Of a stretch of DNA of 64,000 nt, positions 4,601 to 11,674 are shown one piece after another (position 1 is the stretch's first letter; every line of letters begins with the position of its first letter). The notes below the pieces were generated by a model. The model searched no databases, was not told the DNA's origin, and was given only the letters and a program-made list of their open reading frames with translations. The position numbers and the translations under genes are program-made. Source of the DNA: Hypanus sabinus. Its lineage: Eukaryota. The stretch is taken from positions 33,294,001 through 33,358,000 of the forward strand of contig NC_082712.1 of NCBI RefSeq assembly GCF_030144855.1, written 5' to 3'.

Positions 4601-5115
4601 CACCAGCATTTCTATTCACACAACATTTACTATATGTTTATGCCCTACCTGTATGTGATCTTCATAAATGAGTAATTTTGCACTTGTCAACATAACATTT
4701 CTTCTGCCAGTATCTTCTCATCTGATCTGTAACCTGCTGTAGCCTTGAGCAATCTTCCTTGCTATCCAAAACACAACGGGTTTTCATGTATTCTGCACAC
4801 TTATTACATTCACATACAAGTCATTAACATGATGGAGGGAAAGGAGCAGTCAAAGACCTTGGATGAAGGTTCTTGGCCTGAAACATTGACAGTTTATTTC
4901 CCTCCATACATGCTGCCAGATTAGCTGAGTTCCTCCAGTATTTTGTATGTTGCTCAAGACTTCCAGTATCTACAGATTATCAAGCCATGAATATAGGTCA
5001 TTAAAATATATCACAAGCAGCAAGGTCCTAGCTTTAATCCCTGTGGTATATCACTGGCTACAAACTTCTGAAGAGGAATGTACCTTTCCTTCACTATCTC
5101 TACCTCCTATTATTA

Positions 5116-5813
5116 TGTAACCCCCTGTGTCGCCTCAGGCTCGCTCAGCTCGTTCTCGTCTAGGGGGAGCAGCCTTCGGCCCCACCAAACTGGGTAATCA
5201 GCTGGTGTGGATGCTGTGTGATGTCCCCGCCTCGCCCAAAACCAGACAGTACACCATATGCGATTAAATGAATACAATTTATAAAGGTTACTATAACTAA
5301 GTGATTAATAACGATACGGTATATATGAAGAGAAAATTAAAGAAAAGGCGCCAAACTTATCAAAGTCCAAACTACTTCGTGCACAGCCGTTGGAGCTCAA
5401 TTACTGAAGTCTTCTGGCCACCATTCGATCCCCTCCGAACTCCTCGACTCGCAGCTCAGGACCCTCCGAACTCCTTGACTCTCCAAACAGCTCAGGACCC
5501 TCCGAGTGGTCAACCAAGCACATCTAGCTTCATCCCCCCCCCCCCCCGGAGAATCTCCCGGCCTCGGACCCCCCTTTGGGGTCCGATCCTCGCCCAGCTT
5601 AGAGCATTGCGTCCTCTCTCTCGACCCCCTCTCGCCGATCTGCCCAAAAGCCCGTCAACAAAAGCTTACAGACTCAGAAGAAAGAACATTAATCCCCATT
5701 TGGTTTACAAAGGAATACCATTCTCGTTATCAGTAAATTAGCATTCCTGCTAGTTAACAAAAGGAAACCCTTTCCCAATAGTAACAAAGAAAAAAAAAGA
5801 AACCCCCTTTACA
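5116..5813 (-). repeat. 3' LTR (698 bp), with internal ~31-36 bp tandem repeat at 5431-5505
   Basis: Direct repeat of 8253-8947. On the minus strand it is preceded by the purine-rich ggtggagtaagtg (degenerate PPT, 5814-5826). Confidence 0.95.
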
Positions 5814-6253
5814 CACTTACTCCACCAAATAAAAGTCATGTCCTCATGACTACTAAATAACTCGCCACCTTTCCTGCCAACACACCGTAACCCAAGCACA
5901 AACAGTGACATCTCCTCCCCACACAGTAACCCTCACGCCCTGTTCCTCAGGCGCTACTTAGGCCAACTATCTGGGAGTTCCCTAACCCTTCTGAGGCCTC
6001 CGTACCCCCTCACCTAAACCCTTCAGGCTCGGACACAACTGGGGATACCTTGGGCCCACTACCAACTCCTCTCTCAACCTCTCACTCATGCCCCACACTG
6101 CACACAGCTAACCCTCCCCGCTACTCCTGACTCAATGGGAGAAGGGCCAAAGGTCTCTTCCTCAATCGAGGGAAAGTCAGCAAAAGGCAGCATGTACCAC
6201 ACATCCAGCACATCATCCATCGAATCTGTATTCTTCCTCATTCCTGTGATCGG

Positions 6254-6574
6254 TAGCTGCTGTTTGATCTTCTCCAAACGGAAACACGTGGCCTGCACTG
6301 CTCCCGCAGTCTCTTCAGCCTCCTGTTCAGTATTCACTTCACTTCTCTCCAGCTTTTTCTTCCTCATGACTTCTTCCAGATCAACTTTCAGGTTTTGCAC
6401 TTCATTTGAACTGTCGATGGTCATCTTCAGGATCCCTTCAAGCTTCCGCTTCTCTCTTCTGAGATTTGGCTGTAATTTCTTCACCTCTGCAAACTCCCCT
6501 CTCCGGGTTCTCAGTTTGCTATTACCCTCAGTCAGACAACTTTCTTCATTCTCTCCAACTTGTAAGTCTTCCGA
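6254..6574 (-). pseudogene. Captured sarcomeric myosin heavy-chain rod fragments (MYH16-like), in frame with RT
   Basis: [20 protein letters not shown]...[37 protein letters not shown] and [24 protein letters not shown] align by eye to recalled MYH16 DDLQAEEDKVNHLTKNNSKL...LKMTIDNLNEMERSKLDLEEVVKKRDLE..VN and QEAEEAAETAQARAASLEKNKQRL. Confidence 0.78.
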
Positions 6575-6579
6575 ATGGC

Positions 6580-7111
6580 TCCAGATCACTTTCTCCAGTC
6601 TCTCCGTCTTCATATCAAACTTGATTCCGTAGAGACAGTCTCTCACGAGCTGCGACCTTCGCCAGCCCTGGCACGTATCCCGAAAACACTTTAACTCGGT
6701 AGTTCTCAGCTGCTCCTGCAACGACCTCACTTCATATTCTCCTGAGGCAAATCCAAACACCAAGAGATCATCCACATACACCAAAACTCCAAACGCCTCC
6801 ACATCCCCTATGGTCTTCCACCTGCCCCGCAGGAAGGTTGCAAGGGCTCCAGATATGCCCTGTGGCATCTTTTCGGACCCGAAGACTCCTAGGGAATGTA
6901 TAACGGCCGTCTTCTCCTTGTTGGCCCCACTCATCGGGATCTGGCAACATCCACTCCTCAGATCCAGCACCTTAAACCACTTCACACCACTCAGACAGGC
7001 CATCGCCTCTCCGGCCCTCAGGGCCATATTCTGGTCACTGACAGTGCGCCTCTTCAACGCAATATAATCCATACACACGCTGCCTACGTCTTCCACGGCT
7101 GTAGGGGCCAG
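6580..7111 (-). pseudogene. Partial Gypsy reverse transcriptase
   Basis: [11 protein letters not shown]...[16 protein letters not shown]...KEKTA...[12 protein letters not shown]...[11 protein letters not shown], with YVDD at 6767-6778. No RNase H or integrase follows. Confidence 0.88.
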
Positions 7112-8191
7112 TCACCGCAACCTCTCTCTCTCCGAGGTGTCTTCAGCAGTCAACTCCCCTCCCTCGTGGTATTTCGCAGCGTCCACGAAGAGGTTCTCAC
7201 CCTCAGATAGTTCCCCCAGGTTGTACCACCACTGGCTCTTGTTTGAATTCGGTACCAGCCCAATGCTGCTACCCACGTCCACACAAGCAGCTCGAAACTC
7301 TGGGTGCATCGACAATGCCTCCAAACAACGCTCACCCGCCTCCTCTGGGCAGGCCCCCAAGCGCACCAGCAGGATATTGGTTCTCTCTAGAACAGAAACG
7401 CTGCCCGTCTCAACAGGGTCCGGACACATCAGCATTAACGATTCCTGAACCTCAGTCTCCTCCACATTTGCCTCCAAGAACTCCATTTTCACTGACCAAC
7501 AACCATCGTCTGGATAATCACTGGCACTGGTACCCCGAATCTCCAGTGTCCTCAATGTCGTCAAGGGTAAATGCTTCCAATAACGGTTATGAAACAAACT
7601 GTACAGCAACTTAACCGGCGCTTCGGTGCCGAGGATGGCTTTAACTTGACTTCCATCCATCCGTAACAACACCTGTGCGCTTGGTCCCTCTAAGCCTTCA
7701 GGAATAGGGGCTGTTCCTTTCGGGAGTTCCTTGGTACATTGCTGGGAACGTGCTCCCCCAGAGACCCCAAGCCGTTCCCCCACTGGGCCTCCTCTAAGTT
7801 TCCCGACACCTCTCGAATCAACGGAACAACTGATCCCCTTGACAGATCCCCTTGGCACCATAAGCAATTTATCTGCCCCCCTAGGCAAAAAGAGATACCC
7901 TAAAAACTTCCCACCAATCTCCTGCCACAGATATAATAAGCCCCCCAGCTGCGGCATTTGACTTCCAGTCGAACCACACGCATTTTCCCACACTTTCCCA
8001 GAACTGGCAGTGGTCACTTCGAGGTAATTGCGCCCGACAGTTCTAACAAAGTCACCAGCCCGCCTACTCAAACTTTCAACCCGTCCCTGTCGCTTTCCCT
8101 CAGCCAAGCACTGCCACTCACCCAACACACACACAGCGATAACCAGCAATCGCACTCCCACAAAGGCACACCAGCTCTTCGCCGCAGACAC
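7112..8191 (-). pseudogene. Degenerate Gypsy gag (PNMA-like) plus aspartic protease remnant
   Basis: [36 protein letters not shown]...KHLPLT..LEI.G....YP.DG resembles Gypsy protease (AILDTGSQV), with catalytic DTG changed to GTE. Starts at GTG. Confidence 0.75.
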
Positions 8192-8230
8192 AATTTAAAT
8201 AGGGTGATCACACAGCTTCCACAGAAATCA

Positions 8231-8249
8231 ATCCCGGACGAGCCCCCCA
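8231..8249 (-). promoter_or_regulatory. Primer-binding site complementary to tRNA-Pro 3' end
   Basis: Minus strand TGGGGGGCTCGTCCGGGAT, 3 nt inside the 5' LTR. The canonical tRNA-Pro PBS is TGGGGGCTCGTCCGGGAT, so this copy has one extra G. Confidence 0.9.
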
Positions 8250-8252
8250 CAA

Positions 8253-8947
8253 TGTAACCCCCTGGGTCGCCTCAGGCTCGCTCAGCTCGTTTCGTCTAGG
8301 GGGAGCAGCCTCCGGCCCCGCCAAACTGGGTAATCAGCTGGTGTGGATGCTGTGTGATGTCCCCACCTCGCCCAAAAACAGACAGTACACCATAAGCGAT
8401 TAAATGAGTACAATTTATAAAGGTTACTATAACTAAGTGATTAATAATGATACAGTATATATGAAGAGAAAATTAAAGAAAAGGCGCCAAACTTATCAAA
8501 GTCCAAACCTCTTCGTGCACAACCGTTGGAGCTCAATTACTGAAGTCTTCTGGCCACCATTCGATCCCCTCCGAACTCCTCGACTCGCAGCTCAGGACCC
8601 TCCGAACTCCTCGACTCTCCAAACAGCTCAGGACCCTCCGAGTGGTCAACCAAGCACATCTAGCTTCATCCCCCCCCCCCCCGCCTCGGAGAATCTCCAG
8701 GCCTCGGACCCCCCTTTGGGGTCCGATCCTCGCCCAGCTTAGAGCATGGCGTCCTCTCTCTCGACCCCCTCGCGCCAATCTGCCCAAAAGCCCGTCAACA
8801 AAAGCTTACAGACTCAGAAGAAAGAACATTAATCCCCATTTGGTTTACAAAGGAATTCTCGTTATCAGTAAATTAGCATTCCTGCTAGTTAACAAAAGGA
8901 AACCCTTTCCCAATAGTAACAAAGAAAAAAAAGAAACCCCCTTTACA
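8253..8947 (-). repeat. 5' LTR (695 bp)
   Basis: tgtaaccccc...ccctttaca. Direct repeat of 5116-5813. On the minus strand it is followed by the PBS. Confidence 0.95.
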
Positions 8948-11674
8948 ATTAAACCAATTTTGGATCCAATTAACTAGCTCACCATTTGAGTGTCTTAATA
9001 TTCTGGCCAGCCTACCACGCGGGAACTTGTCAAGTGTCTTAGTAAAGTTCATCTCAACAACATCTACTGGCTGCCTTCATCATTTTTCTTTGTTATCTCC
9101 TTAAAAAAAATCAGTCAACTTCATGACATAAGATTTCTCCTGCAGAAAGGTATGCTGCCTATCCCTGCTCAGCCTCCACCTTTCCAACTGTACAGAAATC
9201 CTGTCCCTCAGAGTTGTCTCCAAGAAAGTCCCTACTACTAATGTAAGCCTCTCTGTTCTGTGATGACCCAATTTTCCATGATTGGACCTTCTACTTTGTC
9301 ATTCCAATGATTACTAATCTTACCATCTTTGTCTTTCACCCCACTGGAACATCCTGATCCCGAACACTCAGTAAATGTCTTTAAAAAGGCTCCCATTTGT
9401 TAGATGTCTCTTGACCCTGAAGCAACTGCTCCCGACCTGCTTTCACGAGGTCCTCTTCTATGGTGTTGAAAGCAGCCTTCTCTCAATTTCAGATCCTAGC
9501 TTGAGAACAAACCTAATCCCTTTCCATAACTAAGTTGAAACTTGCAGGGCCATGGTGACTTGGTGACTCTACTTTTCGTAGAGTGAGCTTTCGAGAAACT
9601 CATTTTATGGGTGTTTCAGCAGTCACTGTGAGCACCTTCTGATGGGTGAAACACCCTCTCCCAGAAAGCCTTTGCTCCTATCCTGGCAGATACCGTCGTA
9701 GTGGATACTTGTATGCTTCATCCATGTTGGGTGCATGTGTGACTGTGTGAGAGAAAGTTAAACAGCGGATGTTACACTGCTGTTGCAGCGTCCATGGCCT
9801 AACTGGTGATATTTTTTGCTGGCATTAAACATCTGTACGCAGGGTGCATATTGTGTCTCCTATTCGCTAGTACTTCAGGTAATCTCTTGAGGTGTGCACA
9901 AGGAGTAGGGTAAAATGCTTTAAGAAGTATTTAATACTGAGTCCTGATGCAGGGTTTCAACCTGAGACATTGACAGTTCCTCTCTTGCCACAGATTGTAT
10001 TTGACCTACTCAGTTTCTCCCGCAGGTTGTTTGTTGCTCCAGATTCCAACATCTGCAGTCCCTTGAATATTTACTGCTGATGTTCACATTTCTTTCTAAA
10101 TGGCCCACTTTTTTTTCTAAAATAGTTTTGCAAGTCATTATTTGACGTTGGTAGCAGTTCTTATGATTGACTATAAAATGTAAGTAGGCATGTAAAATTG
10201 ATCAAGCAGTGACTATTTTTATTTCTAATGACTTGAACCATTATTTTGCATCAGTTATGAATATAATAAAGAATTGGATAGATTTGTGATTAATAGAATA
10301 GAATCAGGTCTGTGCAGATGTAGAGTAGGAAAATGTGATTGATGAGCATTTAGCAAAGTACTGATCAGTCATACTGATTTGTGTCCTCTTTGTAAATACA
10401 ATCTGGTTACAAATGTCAGTCATGAGGCCGGCACAGTGGGGTGGCAGTGTGTGCTGCTTGCTGACCTCCGATGCCATCATGTAGGGTTTGCATGTTCTCC
10501 TTGTGATCACGTGGGCTTCTTCCAGCTCTCAATCCCCAAAAAGGTGTGTTCACAAGTGGATAAGCTATTGAAAATTACCTCTCAGTGCAGGCTAATGACA
10601 AAAGTTATCAAAGGGAAGTTTCTGGACATGAGAATGAGGGAATATTTTGCATGCACATAGAGAAATAAAGAGATGGATTGTTCTTCAGGAGCTAGCATGA
10701 ACCTGAGGGTCTGAATGGCCTTTTGTGTTACTGTGAATATAAAGCAGGTTAACGAATTGACATTTATACATCAGTATATCCTCAACAAGTAACCAGATAA
10801 ATTCAGACTATTCACCTTGACCAAAATTTTCTGGCTTTGTTTTGCTGATTTAGTGAATGAAAAGCCTCCACTCTTAGCCCTTCAGCTTTGCAACTGTGTG
10901 TGGATTGATATCCTAAAATATTCTGCATGTAAATGTACATATTTAATAATCTATTTACAGCAGTCTCTTGTGTAATATTGTCTCTTCTGCCTACATGATA
11001 GAAATTTCAAGGTATTGTATTGTGGTTGTTTGGAAATTTGTCAGAGAAGAATGTGCTCACAGGTCTTTGTGAGTATTTTTATTAAATTGTGATTGCCTTT
11101 TTGTTATGCTGCATTTGTTTCTGGAACAATAGGCATCTGAAAACTATTCTGGTGATTTAGCCGAGTGCATATGCTACCCAACTATGGAAATGATTCTACA
11201 ACAGGGGGTTCACAATTTTTTTCTTAATGTCATGGAACCCTACCATTAACCGAGGGGTCCATGGACTCTAGGTTGGGAACCCATGTGAATCTACAGTGAA
11301 GGAGATTTTAGAGTTGACTTCTACTCTCTGCATTACTCTAATTTGGGTTTCTAATGAAGTGCCAATTTTGGTTAATCTTGTGCTTGCTGGGCAGAGGCAA
11401 GCATAGAAAAAAATTATTCAGCTTTCTTGTTGGCAAGTGTTCGGTATGACTACTGTGATTATAGGATTCAGCTTGACCGTGTGAGGTCTATACAACCAAA
11501 TAGCCTGCCTACATGTGGTACTTATTGATTCTTACAAGTGTAGAATGGCTACTGCAGATATATGATAGAGGAAAAATAGTATATAAATGGTGGGGAATAT
11601 GGAAGGAAAGCTGAGTATTAATCACTGTGAAAAAGAATGAACAATCATAGCTCCAATAGTGGCTGTTCCTAATA

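What the first reader, a model, noticed from the sequence alone, without database searches (positions are those of the whole stretch)
6254..6574. Gypsy LTR element has captured myosin heavy-chain (MYH16-like) mRNA in place of RNase H and integrase
Seen: right after the RT (YVDD...), the same minus-strand frame reads [20 protein letters not shown]...[66 protein letters not shown]. It then returns to an acidic pol-tail-like segment ([15 protein letters not shown]). Knowledge (recalled sequences): LKMTID..NE....KxDLEEV..K..LE is the signature of the ancient superfast myosin MYH16 S2 rod (other sarcomeric MYHs read LKLAQES/LKLTQES). QEAEE....A.....LEK.KQ.L lies roughly 300 residues further down the rod. 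Inference: two non-adjacent, intron-less pieces were joined at an EQ/QE microhomology, as expected from template switching onto a co-packaged spliced host mRNA. This would be retrovirus-style transduction of a muscle gene by a fish Gypsy element, producing an RT-coiled-coil chimera. I am not aware of a described family like this.
Basis: partly seen in the sequence, partly recalled or inferred. Interest (0 to 1): 0.92.

Follow-up and report, generated by a model that had tools for sequence, protein, structure and literature searches.

The report
Ray retrotransposon carrying spliced myosin-rod pieces
This is one dead copy of a crippled jumping-gene family of rays that swapped its integrase for intron-free pieces of an unusual host myosin gene, spread to over a thousand sites, and seems to have kept the cargo readable as protein without keeping its amino-acid sequence.

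Summary
Confirmed. The stretch lies in a 3.8-kb non-autonomous Gypsy LTR element (5116-8947, minus strand, 4-bp target duplication). The myosin match is real. The donor is not canonical MYH16 but a second, divergent MYH16-type gene in the same genome, for which three motor-exon searches found nothing. This copy crosses three of its splice junctions (introns 2.7-28 kb); relatives cross three more. The family has 923 short-type and 195 long-type junction matches. A Mobula protein keeps other pieces of the same capture. Protease, RT and integrase are dead or gone. The cargo drifts near-neutrally (dN/dS 0.67-0.91; conserved sites not spared), yet about 16 junctions stay in frame and no stop is fixed. 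Best reading: template-switch capture, mobilisation by an autonomous relative, selection for translatability rather than for a myosin function. LTR gene capture is known (Tan 2016, Bs1); this scale and frame-only conservation were not found in my searches. The scan noted this family before in other ray genomes (6 unchecked notes).

The parts
8948..8951 (-). target-site duplication, 5' side (TAAT)
8253..8947 (-). 5' LTR, 695 bp, TG...CA
   Evidence: 674 of 691 aligned bases identical to the 3' LTR
8232..8252 (-). primer-binding-site region, nearly the same as in the autonomous family
   Evidence: priming tRNA not identified
7805..8125 (-). gag remnant (PNMA-type capsid N-terminal half, two internal deletions); this copy lacks the upstream part that holds the start codon of other copies
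7798..7804 (-). GGGAAAC gag/pol hinge, as in 6 of 10 examined autonomous-family copies; read as a -1 frameshift site (label recalled, not tested)
7210..7797 (-). protease-region remnant without the catalytic aspartate
6665..7144 (-). RT remnant with YVDD, 33-codon internal deletion, ends before the thumb; interrupted in this copy by a stop at 7112-7114
   Evidence: (RVT_1 22.5 bits, below cut-off)
6638..6664 (-). first myosin-derived piece (donor exon Y); the original RT-to-mRNA switch lies just upstream
   Evidence: median 19 of 27 nt to donor against 9 of 27 to the RT continuation, 44 copies; Mobula protein P0129 continues into exon Y from the same point
6611..6640 (-). 30-nt island like the end of Gypsy RNase H, nested in the myosin insert
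   Evidence: median 22 of 30 nt to autonomous RNase H against 9-11 of 30 to donor alternatives
6581..6610 (-). myosin exon Y-end/Z remnant; splice junction Z/A at 6581|6580
   Evidence: 12 of 15 to exon Z end, 5 of 15 to the intron
6494..6580 (-). myosin exon A; junction A/B at 6494|6493 (27,987-nt intron absent)
6360..6493 (-). myosin exon B with a 12-nt deletion; junction B/C at 6360|6359 (2,710-nt intron absent)
   Evidence: 18 of 20 and 17 of 20 to the exons, 6 and 4 of 20 to the introns
6326..6359 (-). start of myosin exon C; ends at the short-type joint 6326|6325 (162 nt of the long type deleted)
6250..6325 (-). myosin exon J piece
6086..6249 (-). native acidic pol tail and stop codon
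   Evidence: matches residues 1820-1862 of the autonomous ORF, E 1e-5
5814..5829 (-). purine-rich tract before the 3' LTR
5116..5813 (-). 3' LTR, 698 bp
5112..5115 (-). target-site duplication, 3' side (TAAT)

Best explanation
An ancestral Gypsy element in a ray germ line co-packaged the spliced mRNA of a divergent MYH16-type rod gene. RT switched onto it after the RT palm and back before the pol tail, replacing thumb, RNase H and integrase with about 1.5 kb of myosin rod (exons Y to J) in the same frame. The now non-autonomous element kept LTRs, primer site and purine tract and has been copied in trans by an autonomous Gypsy relative. Repeated deletions at short direct repeats whittled the cargo differently in different lineages and subfamilies. 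What was selected is an uninterrupted reading frame from gag to the native stop near the 3' LTR (RNA stability and/or a translation-coupled advantage in packaging), not a myosin or RT function: the myosin piece is an in-frame filler. SHOWN: spliced origin, donor, structure, copy numbers, subfamily order, dead enzymes, near-neutral amino-acid drift, in-frame junctions. INFERRED: template switching, germ-line co-packaging, identity of the helper, selection on the frame and its cause.
For: Exact splice junctions with intron controls. Donor closest by DNA and tree, 100/100. Nested deletion series: oldest type, long type, short type; LTR-pair divergence 3.3-8.8% in the 5 long-type copies with 300 or more aligned bases against 0.7-2.5% in 8 of 8 short-type copies. 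Mobula protein P0129 shares the RT/Y, F/I-J and J/tail joints but keeps other exons. Autonomous family with intact domains, the same primer site and LTR pairs 99.8-100% identical; a 30-nt RNase-H-like patch inside the cargo suggests later recombination with such an RNA. dN/dS to donor 0.67-0.91 in 6 of 6 copies, all intervals span 1; MYH16-invariant sites changed 17 of 64, variable sites 16 of 53, p 0.68. No stop fixed in 60 copies where neutral drift predicts about 8-11. 14 junctions all in frame: P 6e-4 with repeat-aware nulls. Shared frame-shifting indels occur upstream of the start codon. Precedent for a cis effect of a gag-pol fusion: IAP 1-delta-1 (PMC6466679, passages).
Against: The 60 copies were the best scorers of two searches, so biased to intact ones. 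Direct repeats in the coiled-coil gene are themselves 64-74% in frame, so in-frame deletion is partly mechanical. For the myosin part alone, zero stops is weak (P 0.03-0.24); the strong figure needs the pol remnants, which may have been under protein selection for part of the time. Net dN/dS between short and long types is 0.26 in the myosin part (interval 0.08-0.88; up to 1.48 without CpG sites), a hint of some protein constraint. 5 of 30 short-type copies share a 13-nt deletion. The autonomous family found is only ~70% identical, so it is a plausible helper, not the parent. No RNA of G000 itself was seen; germ-line expression of the donor is untested.
Confidence: 0.6

Rival explanations
1. 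Pure passenger. The capture is a one-off accident; the frame is open only because deletions happen at same-frame repeats and few master copies founded the subfamilies. Translation does not matter.
For: Near-neutral dN/dS; 64-74% of 7-9-nt repeat pairs in the donor are in frame; cargo shrinks step by step; a 13-nt deletion recurs in 5 of 30 short-type copies.
Against: Gypsy-only and hybrid junctions are in frame too, where the null is 0.43-0.49; about 8-11 stops expected, none fixed; shared frameshifts collect upstream of the start codon instead.
Confidence: 0.25
2. The fusion protein works. The myosin rod fragment dimerises or spaces a Gag-capsid fusion that drags its own RNA into helper particles; the short type gained by making the fusion without a frameshift.
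For: Short type reads gag to tail as one 729-799-codon frame and is the youngest and about five times more numerous; net dN/dS 0.26 in the myosin part between types; IAP 1-delta-1 precedent.
Against: Conserved and core positions are changed as often as others; two-thirds or more of the cargo was lost, and different parts in Mobula and here; the zinc knuckle and capsid C-terminal half are deleted.
Confidence: 0.1
3. Host-side use. Element copies act as a source of small RNAs against the donor myosin, as retrocopies do in Plutella, or mimicry of a host mRNA shields the element from silencing.
For: Precedent PMC9674220 (abstract); donor-like spliced contig and element contigs occur in one run guessed to be RNA.
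Against: Cargo is ~20% diverged from the donor and still diverging; copies are dispersed, sense-oriented in the element; no small-RNA data examined.
Confidence: 0.04
4. Not a capture by the element: a processed myosin pseudogene or genomic DNA recombined into it, or the match is a native coiled-coil linker.
For: Hybrid junctions cannot be resolved to the base because the true parent element was not found.
Against: Six splice junctions crossed across copies; no poly(A) tract at the 3' joint; autonomous relatives have RNase H and integrase at this place. A processed-pseudogene intermediate was not searched for directly, but the search with the skipped rod segment gave 19 matches, all exon-sized hits at host myosin loci.
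Confidence: 0.01

Closest known systems
LTR-mediated retrocopies of animals (Tan et al. 2016, PMC5131818; 12 passages read)
   Same: Partial, intron-free mRNA between two halves of an LTR element, sense-oriented, often in frame; can move again as a non-autonomous element.
   Different: In the passages read the cases are young and few (5 of 7 retrocopies in zebrafish), and 14 of 21 older ones carry loss-of-function changes; here one capture founded over 1,100 copies in several subfamilies, is shared by two ray genera, and keeps its frame at about 20% divergence.
Maize Bs1 (review PMC13317346, passages; the primary papers PMC160511 and PMC2899935 were not held)
   Same: Non-autonomous LTR element with transduced host gene fragments forming a chimeric reading frame.
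   Different: Plant, three donor genes; here one donor, a vertebrate, and no sign of a conserved new protein.
Mouse IAP 1-delta-1 (review PMC6466679, two passages)
   Same: Deleted non-autonomous element with an in-frame gag-pol fusion that outnumbers new insertions of its helper; the fusion acts in cis.
   Different: No host cargo; ERV rather than Gypsy; cis effect shown there, only inferred here.
HERV-K capture of FAM8A1 (passage in PMC5131818) and retroviral oncogene transduction (recalled)
   Same: Spliced host mRNA replaces part of the retroelement's coding region.
   Different: FAM8A1 copy is described as an untranscribed pseudogene; transduced oncogenes are selected for protein function, which is not seen here.
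MYH16 (masticatory myosin; review PMC6402096, passages)
   Same: Donor groups with MYH16 and shares its extra rod introns.
   Different: Donor is a separate locus only 57-63% identical to MYH16 proteins, with no motor exons found; tissue unknown.

Membership tests
Ty3/Gypsy LTR retrotransposon | Paired LTRs TG...CA with short target duplication, primer site and purine tract | tested here: met
   8 of 8 short-type full copies have a perfect 4-bp duplication, each different
Ty3/Gypsy LTR retrotransposon | RT of the Gypsy clade; order gag-PR-RT-RH-IN in the family | tested here: met
   Remnants align in order to an autonomous ORF with PNMA, zf-CCHC, RVT_1, RT_RNaseH, Integrase_H2C2, rve
Autonomous Gypsy element | Own working protease, RT, RNase H and integrase | tested here: not met
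   Integrase absent, RNase H reduced to a 30-nt island, RT deleted, protease aspartate missing
LTR-mediated retrocopy (Tan 2016) | Partial host mRNA without introns | tested here: met
   Z/A, A/B, B/C in the window; Y/Z and E/F in other copies; I/J in P0129
LTR-mediated retrocopy (Tan 2016) | Flanked by discontinuous element sequence, no poly(A) tail | tested here: met
   RT upstream, pol tail downstream, no A-tract at the 3' joint
LTR-mediated retrocopy (Tan 2016) | Microsimilarity at the element-mRNA switch points | tested here: inconclusive
   Parent element not found (relative ~70% identical); clear repeats exist only at internal deletions, e.g. a 9-nt repeat 72 nt apart in exon Z
LTR-mediated retrocopy (Tan 2016) | Co-transcription of cargo and element | tested here: inconclusive
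   Contigs of run X15 span RT and myosin, but the run is only guessed to be RNA
MYH16 lineage (donor gene) | Rod groups with MYH16 and has its extra introns | tested here: met
   Tree: donor+MYH16 split from other sarcomeric myosins 100/100; D/E and E/F introns shared with the C27 gene, absent in the other host myosins examined; best 120 listed database hits are full-length or partial myosins, mostly labelled myosin-16
Canonical MYH16 (donor gene) | Motor domain and orthology to vertebrate MYH16 | tested here: not met
   The C27 gene is the one nested with shark MYH16; relay, SH1 and lever-arm exon searches give no hit at the donor locus; 36 kb upstream of the first rod exon is empty. A very diverged or distant head is not excluded.
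IAP 1-delta-1-like cis-acting fusion | Translation of the fusion raises the element's own mobilisation | not testable with these tools
   Only the in-frame fusion is shown

The most novel reading that the evidence does not exclude
A vertebrate non-autonomous LTR family has been maintained across ray lineages by selection on translatability alone, using a captured myosin rod as in-frame filler, and its youngest burst followed a one-base shift that made gag-to-myosin one continuous frame; the cargo also exposes an undescribed motor-less MYH16 paralog that must be expressed where the element replicates, that is in the germ line or early embryo.
Probability: 0.35. Interest if true: 0.8.

Novelty: new variant of a known kind. 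Interest (0 to 1): 0.6.

Why it matters
It gives a natural, many-copy record of what happens to host cargo after LTR capture: a dated deletion series with more than a thousand replicates in which selection on the reading frame can be separated from selection on the protein. That bears on an open question, why non-autonomous retroelements keep long open frames. It also points to a myosin-rod gene with no close database relative, and explains a set of misnamed gene models ('putative uncharacterized protein MYH16', 'TMEM192 isoform X1', 'myosin heavy chain, skeletal muscle-like') that are element copies and can mislead myosin family counts in rays.

Tried and rejected
Canonical MYH16 (C27:39.5 Mb) as donor: rejected, only one 52-58-nt DNA match and 41-46% protein identity. 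EQ/QE joint as capture point: rejected. My first reading that the whole stretch between RT and exon Z is an RNase H remnant: revised after P0129; the first nine codons are myosin exon Y. My first reading that gag and pol are joined out of frame by a deletion in long-type copies: revised; the offset is the native hinge. A significant RNA structure after the hinge: z 0.17 in both element and autonomous copy, no support. Offsets in one junction test were wrong and were redone; exon ends D and G were wrong and fixed (they do not touch the captured pieces); the TSD column is valid only for short-type copies. Pfam finds no myosin family in the insert. No close database relative of donor exon F (best 57-66%) or exon Y other than the Mobula element protein; both searches have length or clustering limits. 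Literature: no paper on this family in searches; none on a headless MYH16 paralog in searches; a manta/devil ray genome preprint has 0 occurrences of MYH16 or myosin in its main text (its supplements could not be seen). One search gave no direct source for frame retention in defective RNAs, so that analogy is recalled. Repbase and Dfam were not available. Look-ups of earlier scan notes by sequence and by place gave nothing. No structure or complex prediction was run.

Full report
1. What is there. The finding lies inside an LTR-bounded element on the minus strand, 5116-8947, with LTRs of 695 and 698 bp (674 of 691 aligned bases identical), TG...CA ends and a TAAT duplication. Its internal part reads as two frames, 7112-8194 and 6086-7111, separated by one stop. 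RVT_1 scores 22.5 bits, under the cut-off. The quoted peptide is as described.

2. The myosin match is real. Of 14 PDB sequences at E up to 10, the best 8 are sarcomeric myosins in one register. Among 7 hits from 430 longer database candidates, 5 are gene models labelled Hypanus sabinus that are themselves element copies and 2 are teleost myosin-16-like proteins. One of the models, P0004, is matched at 100% in G000, so this is a stingray-type genome.

3. The donor. A search with the rod segment that the element skips gave 19 matches, all at host myosin loci. Two are MYH16-type genes. One, C27:39.52-39.57 Mb, has motor and rod and nests with shark MYH16. The other, C42:45.26-45.50 Mb, has very long introns and is the donor: 79-89% DNA identity to the cargo, 64-67% protein identity against 41-46% for the C27 gene and 24-37% for five other host myosins, and the element joins it at 100/100 (10 MYH16 and 8 other myosin rows, no rows dropped). 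Its exons Y-K give 611 codons without a stop and the rod runs to a normal C-terminus. It shares the D/E and E/F introns with MYH16. Three searches with motor and lever-arm exons found seven sarcomeric loci each but nothing at this gene, and 36 kb upstream of its first rod exon hold no myosin exon. I put a motor-less gene at about 65%; introns reach 37 kb, so a distant, diverged head is possible. No close database relative was found. In run X15 (another organism code, RNA only guessed) a 1,187-nt contig has loose ends that match the donor's A/B and C/D joints by my comparison, so a spliced donor transcript probably exists.

4. The cargo is spliced. In the window, junctions Z/A, A/B and B/C fall at 6581|6580, 6494|6493 and 6360|6359; exon sides match 12/15, 18/20, 17/20 and so on, intron controls 5/15, 6/20, 4/20. 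Missing introns are 27,987 and 2,710 nt and 17,644 nt (my subtraction). Long-type copies also cross E/F (2,104 nt); two oldest-type copies cross Y/Z (14-15 of 21 against 4-5 of 21); the Mobula protein P0129 crosses Y/Z, Z/A, E/F and I/J (protein only).

5. The family. The window's segment has 1,269 first-look candidates, 40 scored at 98-100%. A pattern across the short-type joint has 923 matches, one across E/F in the long type 195, with 0 for both reversed controls; these are lower bounds for copies with the internal part. LTR pairs differ by 0.7-2.5% in 8 of 8 short-type copies and 3.3-8.8% in the 5 of 9 long-type copies with 300 or more aligned bases; two others aligned too briefly and two had one LTR. 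All 8 short-type copies have their own 4-bp duplication. Of 4 runs laid, X2 shows the 162-nt skip and X6, X8 and X15 cover the long-type segment. P0129 (Mobula hypostoma) goes from RT into exon Y at the same place, keeps exon Z whole, skips A-C, and shares the F/I-J and J/tail joints. So one capture of a continuous mRNA from exon Y to J (about 1.5 kb) was trimmed differently in two genera; vertical descent is the simple reading, horizontal transfer was not tested.

6. The vehicle. An autonomous Gypsy family exists (150 of 150 scored candidates matched). Four copies chosen for long frames have 599-602-bp LTRs 99.8-100% identical, nearly the same primer site, and about 70% DNA identity to the element, with all domains present. 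Against it the element is a mosaic: capsid N-half, protease region without its aspartate, RT with a 33-codon gap, cargo, acidic tail. Its RT block is 56% identical to the autonomous one, where turtle elements are 83%. A 30-nt RNase-H-like island sits inside the cargo (22 of 30 nt, 44 of 60 copies with the anchor) where Mobula has continuous myosin; I read it as later recombination with an autonomous RNA. The gag/pol hinge GGGAAAC is in 6 of 6 copies picked for a pol-only frame, and a four-G form in the 4 picked for a single frame; the frameshift label is recalled. Long-type copies keep the native gag/pol offset; short-type copies have a one-base shift in gag that makes one frame from gag to tail.

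7. Selection. Cargo against donor: dS 0.21-0.29, dN 0.18-0.21, ratio 0.67-0.91, all six intervals spanning 1. MYH16-invariant sites are changed as often as variable ones, 17 of 64 and 16 of 53. Net ratio between short and long types is 0.88 for pol remnants and 0.26 (0.08-0.88) for the cargo, the one hint of constraint, lost without CpG sites. Yet in 60 copies no stop is fixed; most are single-copy, the commonest recurs in 8 copies of both types. Neutral drift of 0.12-0.18 per site predicts 1.4-3.4 stops in the cargo and 5.7-7.9 in the pol remnants. Fourteen junctions were all in frame, P 6e-4 with nulls taken from real repeat pairs; after I count 16, about 2e-4 by hand. Against: copies were top scorers, coiled-coil repeats favour in-frame deletion, and 5 of 30 short-type copies share a 13-nt deletion. 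The window's copy itself is dead: it lacks the start region and has a stop at 7112-7114.

8. Mechanism. Best supported (0.6): template-switch capture, mobilisation in trans, and selection for an unbroken frame, through RNA stability or a cis advantage like that reported for IAP 1-delta-1 (PMC6466679, two passages). Which of the two is not resolved; the nonsense-decay and defective-RNA analogies are recalled. Pure passenger 0.25; working coiled-coil fusion 0.10; small-RNA role 0.04.

9. Known and new. LTR-mediated capture with microsimilarity and re-mobilisation is described for animals including zebrafish (PMC5131818, 12 passages) and for maize Bs1 (PMC13317346, passages). I found no paper on this family or on the donor in searches; repeat libraries were not available and preprint supplements could not be seen. 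Six earlier notes of this scan describe the same family in other ray genomes; they are unchecked and not independent support. I reached my reading, and the Tan paper, before seeing them. What this window adds is the donor's identity, the junction series and the frame-versus-protein tests. Verdict: real, a new variant of a known kind, interest 0.6.

Noticed in passing
G000:C42:45,264,900-45,503,800 (L096-L113, L164-L174): Second MYH16-type gene with an intact rod, introns up to 37 kb and no motor exon found, about 0.6 Mb from a cluster of fast-type myosin genes; no close database protein.
   Followed up: partly
L144-L147, L175-L180: Very young autonomous Gypsy family (LTR pairs 99.8-100% identical) with copies differing by one G at the gag/pol hinge, giving either one ~1,985-codon frame or separate frames.
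   Followed up: partly
P0001, P0002, P0004, P0005, P0129, P0189-P0197: Database gene models that are element copies; three carry host-gene names (TMEM192 isoform X1, MYH16, myosin heavy chain-like). Whether they rest on RNA evidence was not checked.
   Followed up: partly
P0005; run X8 loose end at L071:1916: A further in-frame deletion type that removes exon A and most of exon B.
   Followed up: no
L077, L078 and about a dozen small-contig hits: Long-type copies on small contigs share the same stops and deletions, as if amplified with their surroundings rather than by retrotransposition.
   Followed up: no
window:61142-62311 (-): 389-codon frame that recalls a Penelope-type RT end with GIY-YIG-like motif (recalled resemblance); Pfam gave no hit at E 0.01.
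   Followed up: partly
window:44387-45105: Decayed tandem array with 46-47 and 77-79-bp units.
   Followed up: no
window:8948-9500 and 4750-5111: The element appears to split an older LINE-like RT fragment (translation reads like CR1/L2-type RT on both sides; label recalled).
   Followed up: no
window:45759-45898: Run of 140 N.
   Followed up: no
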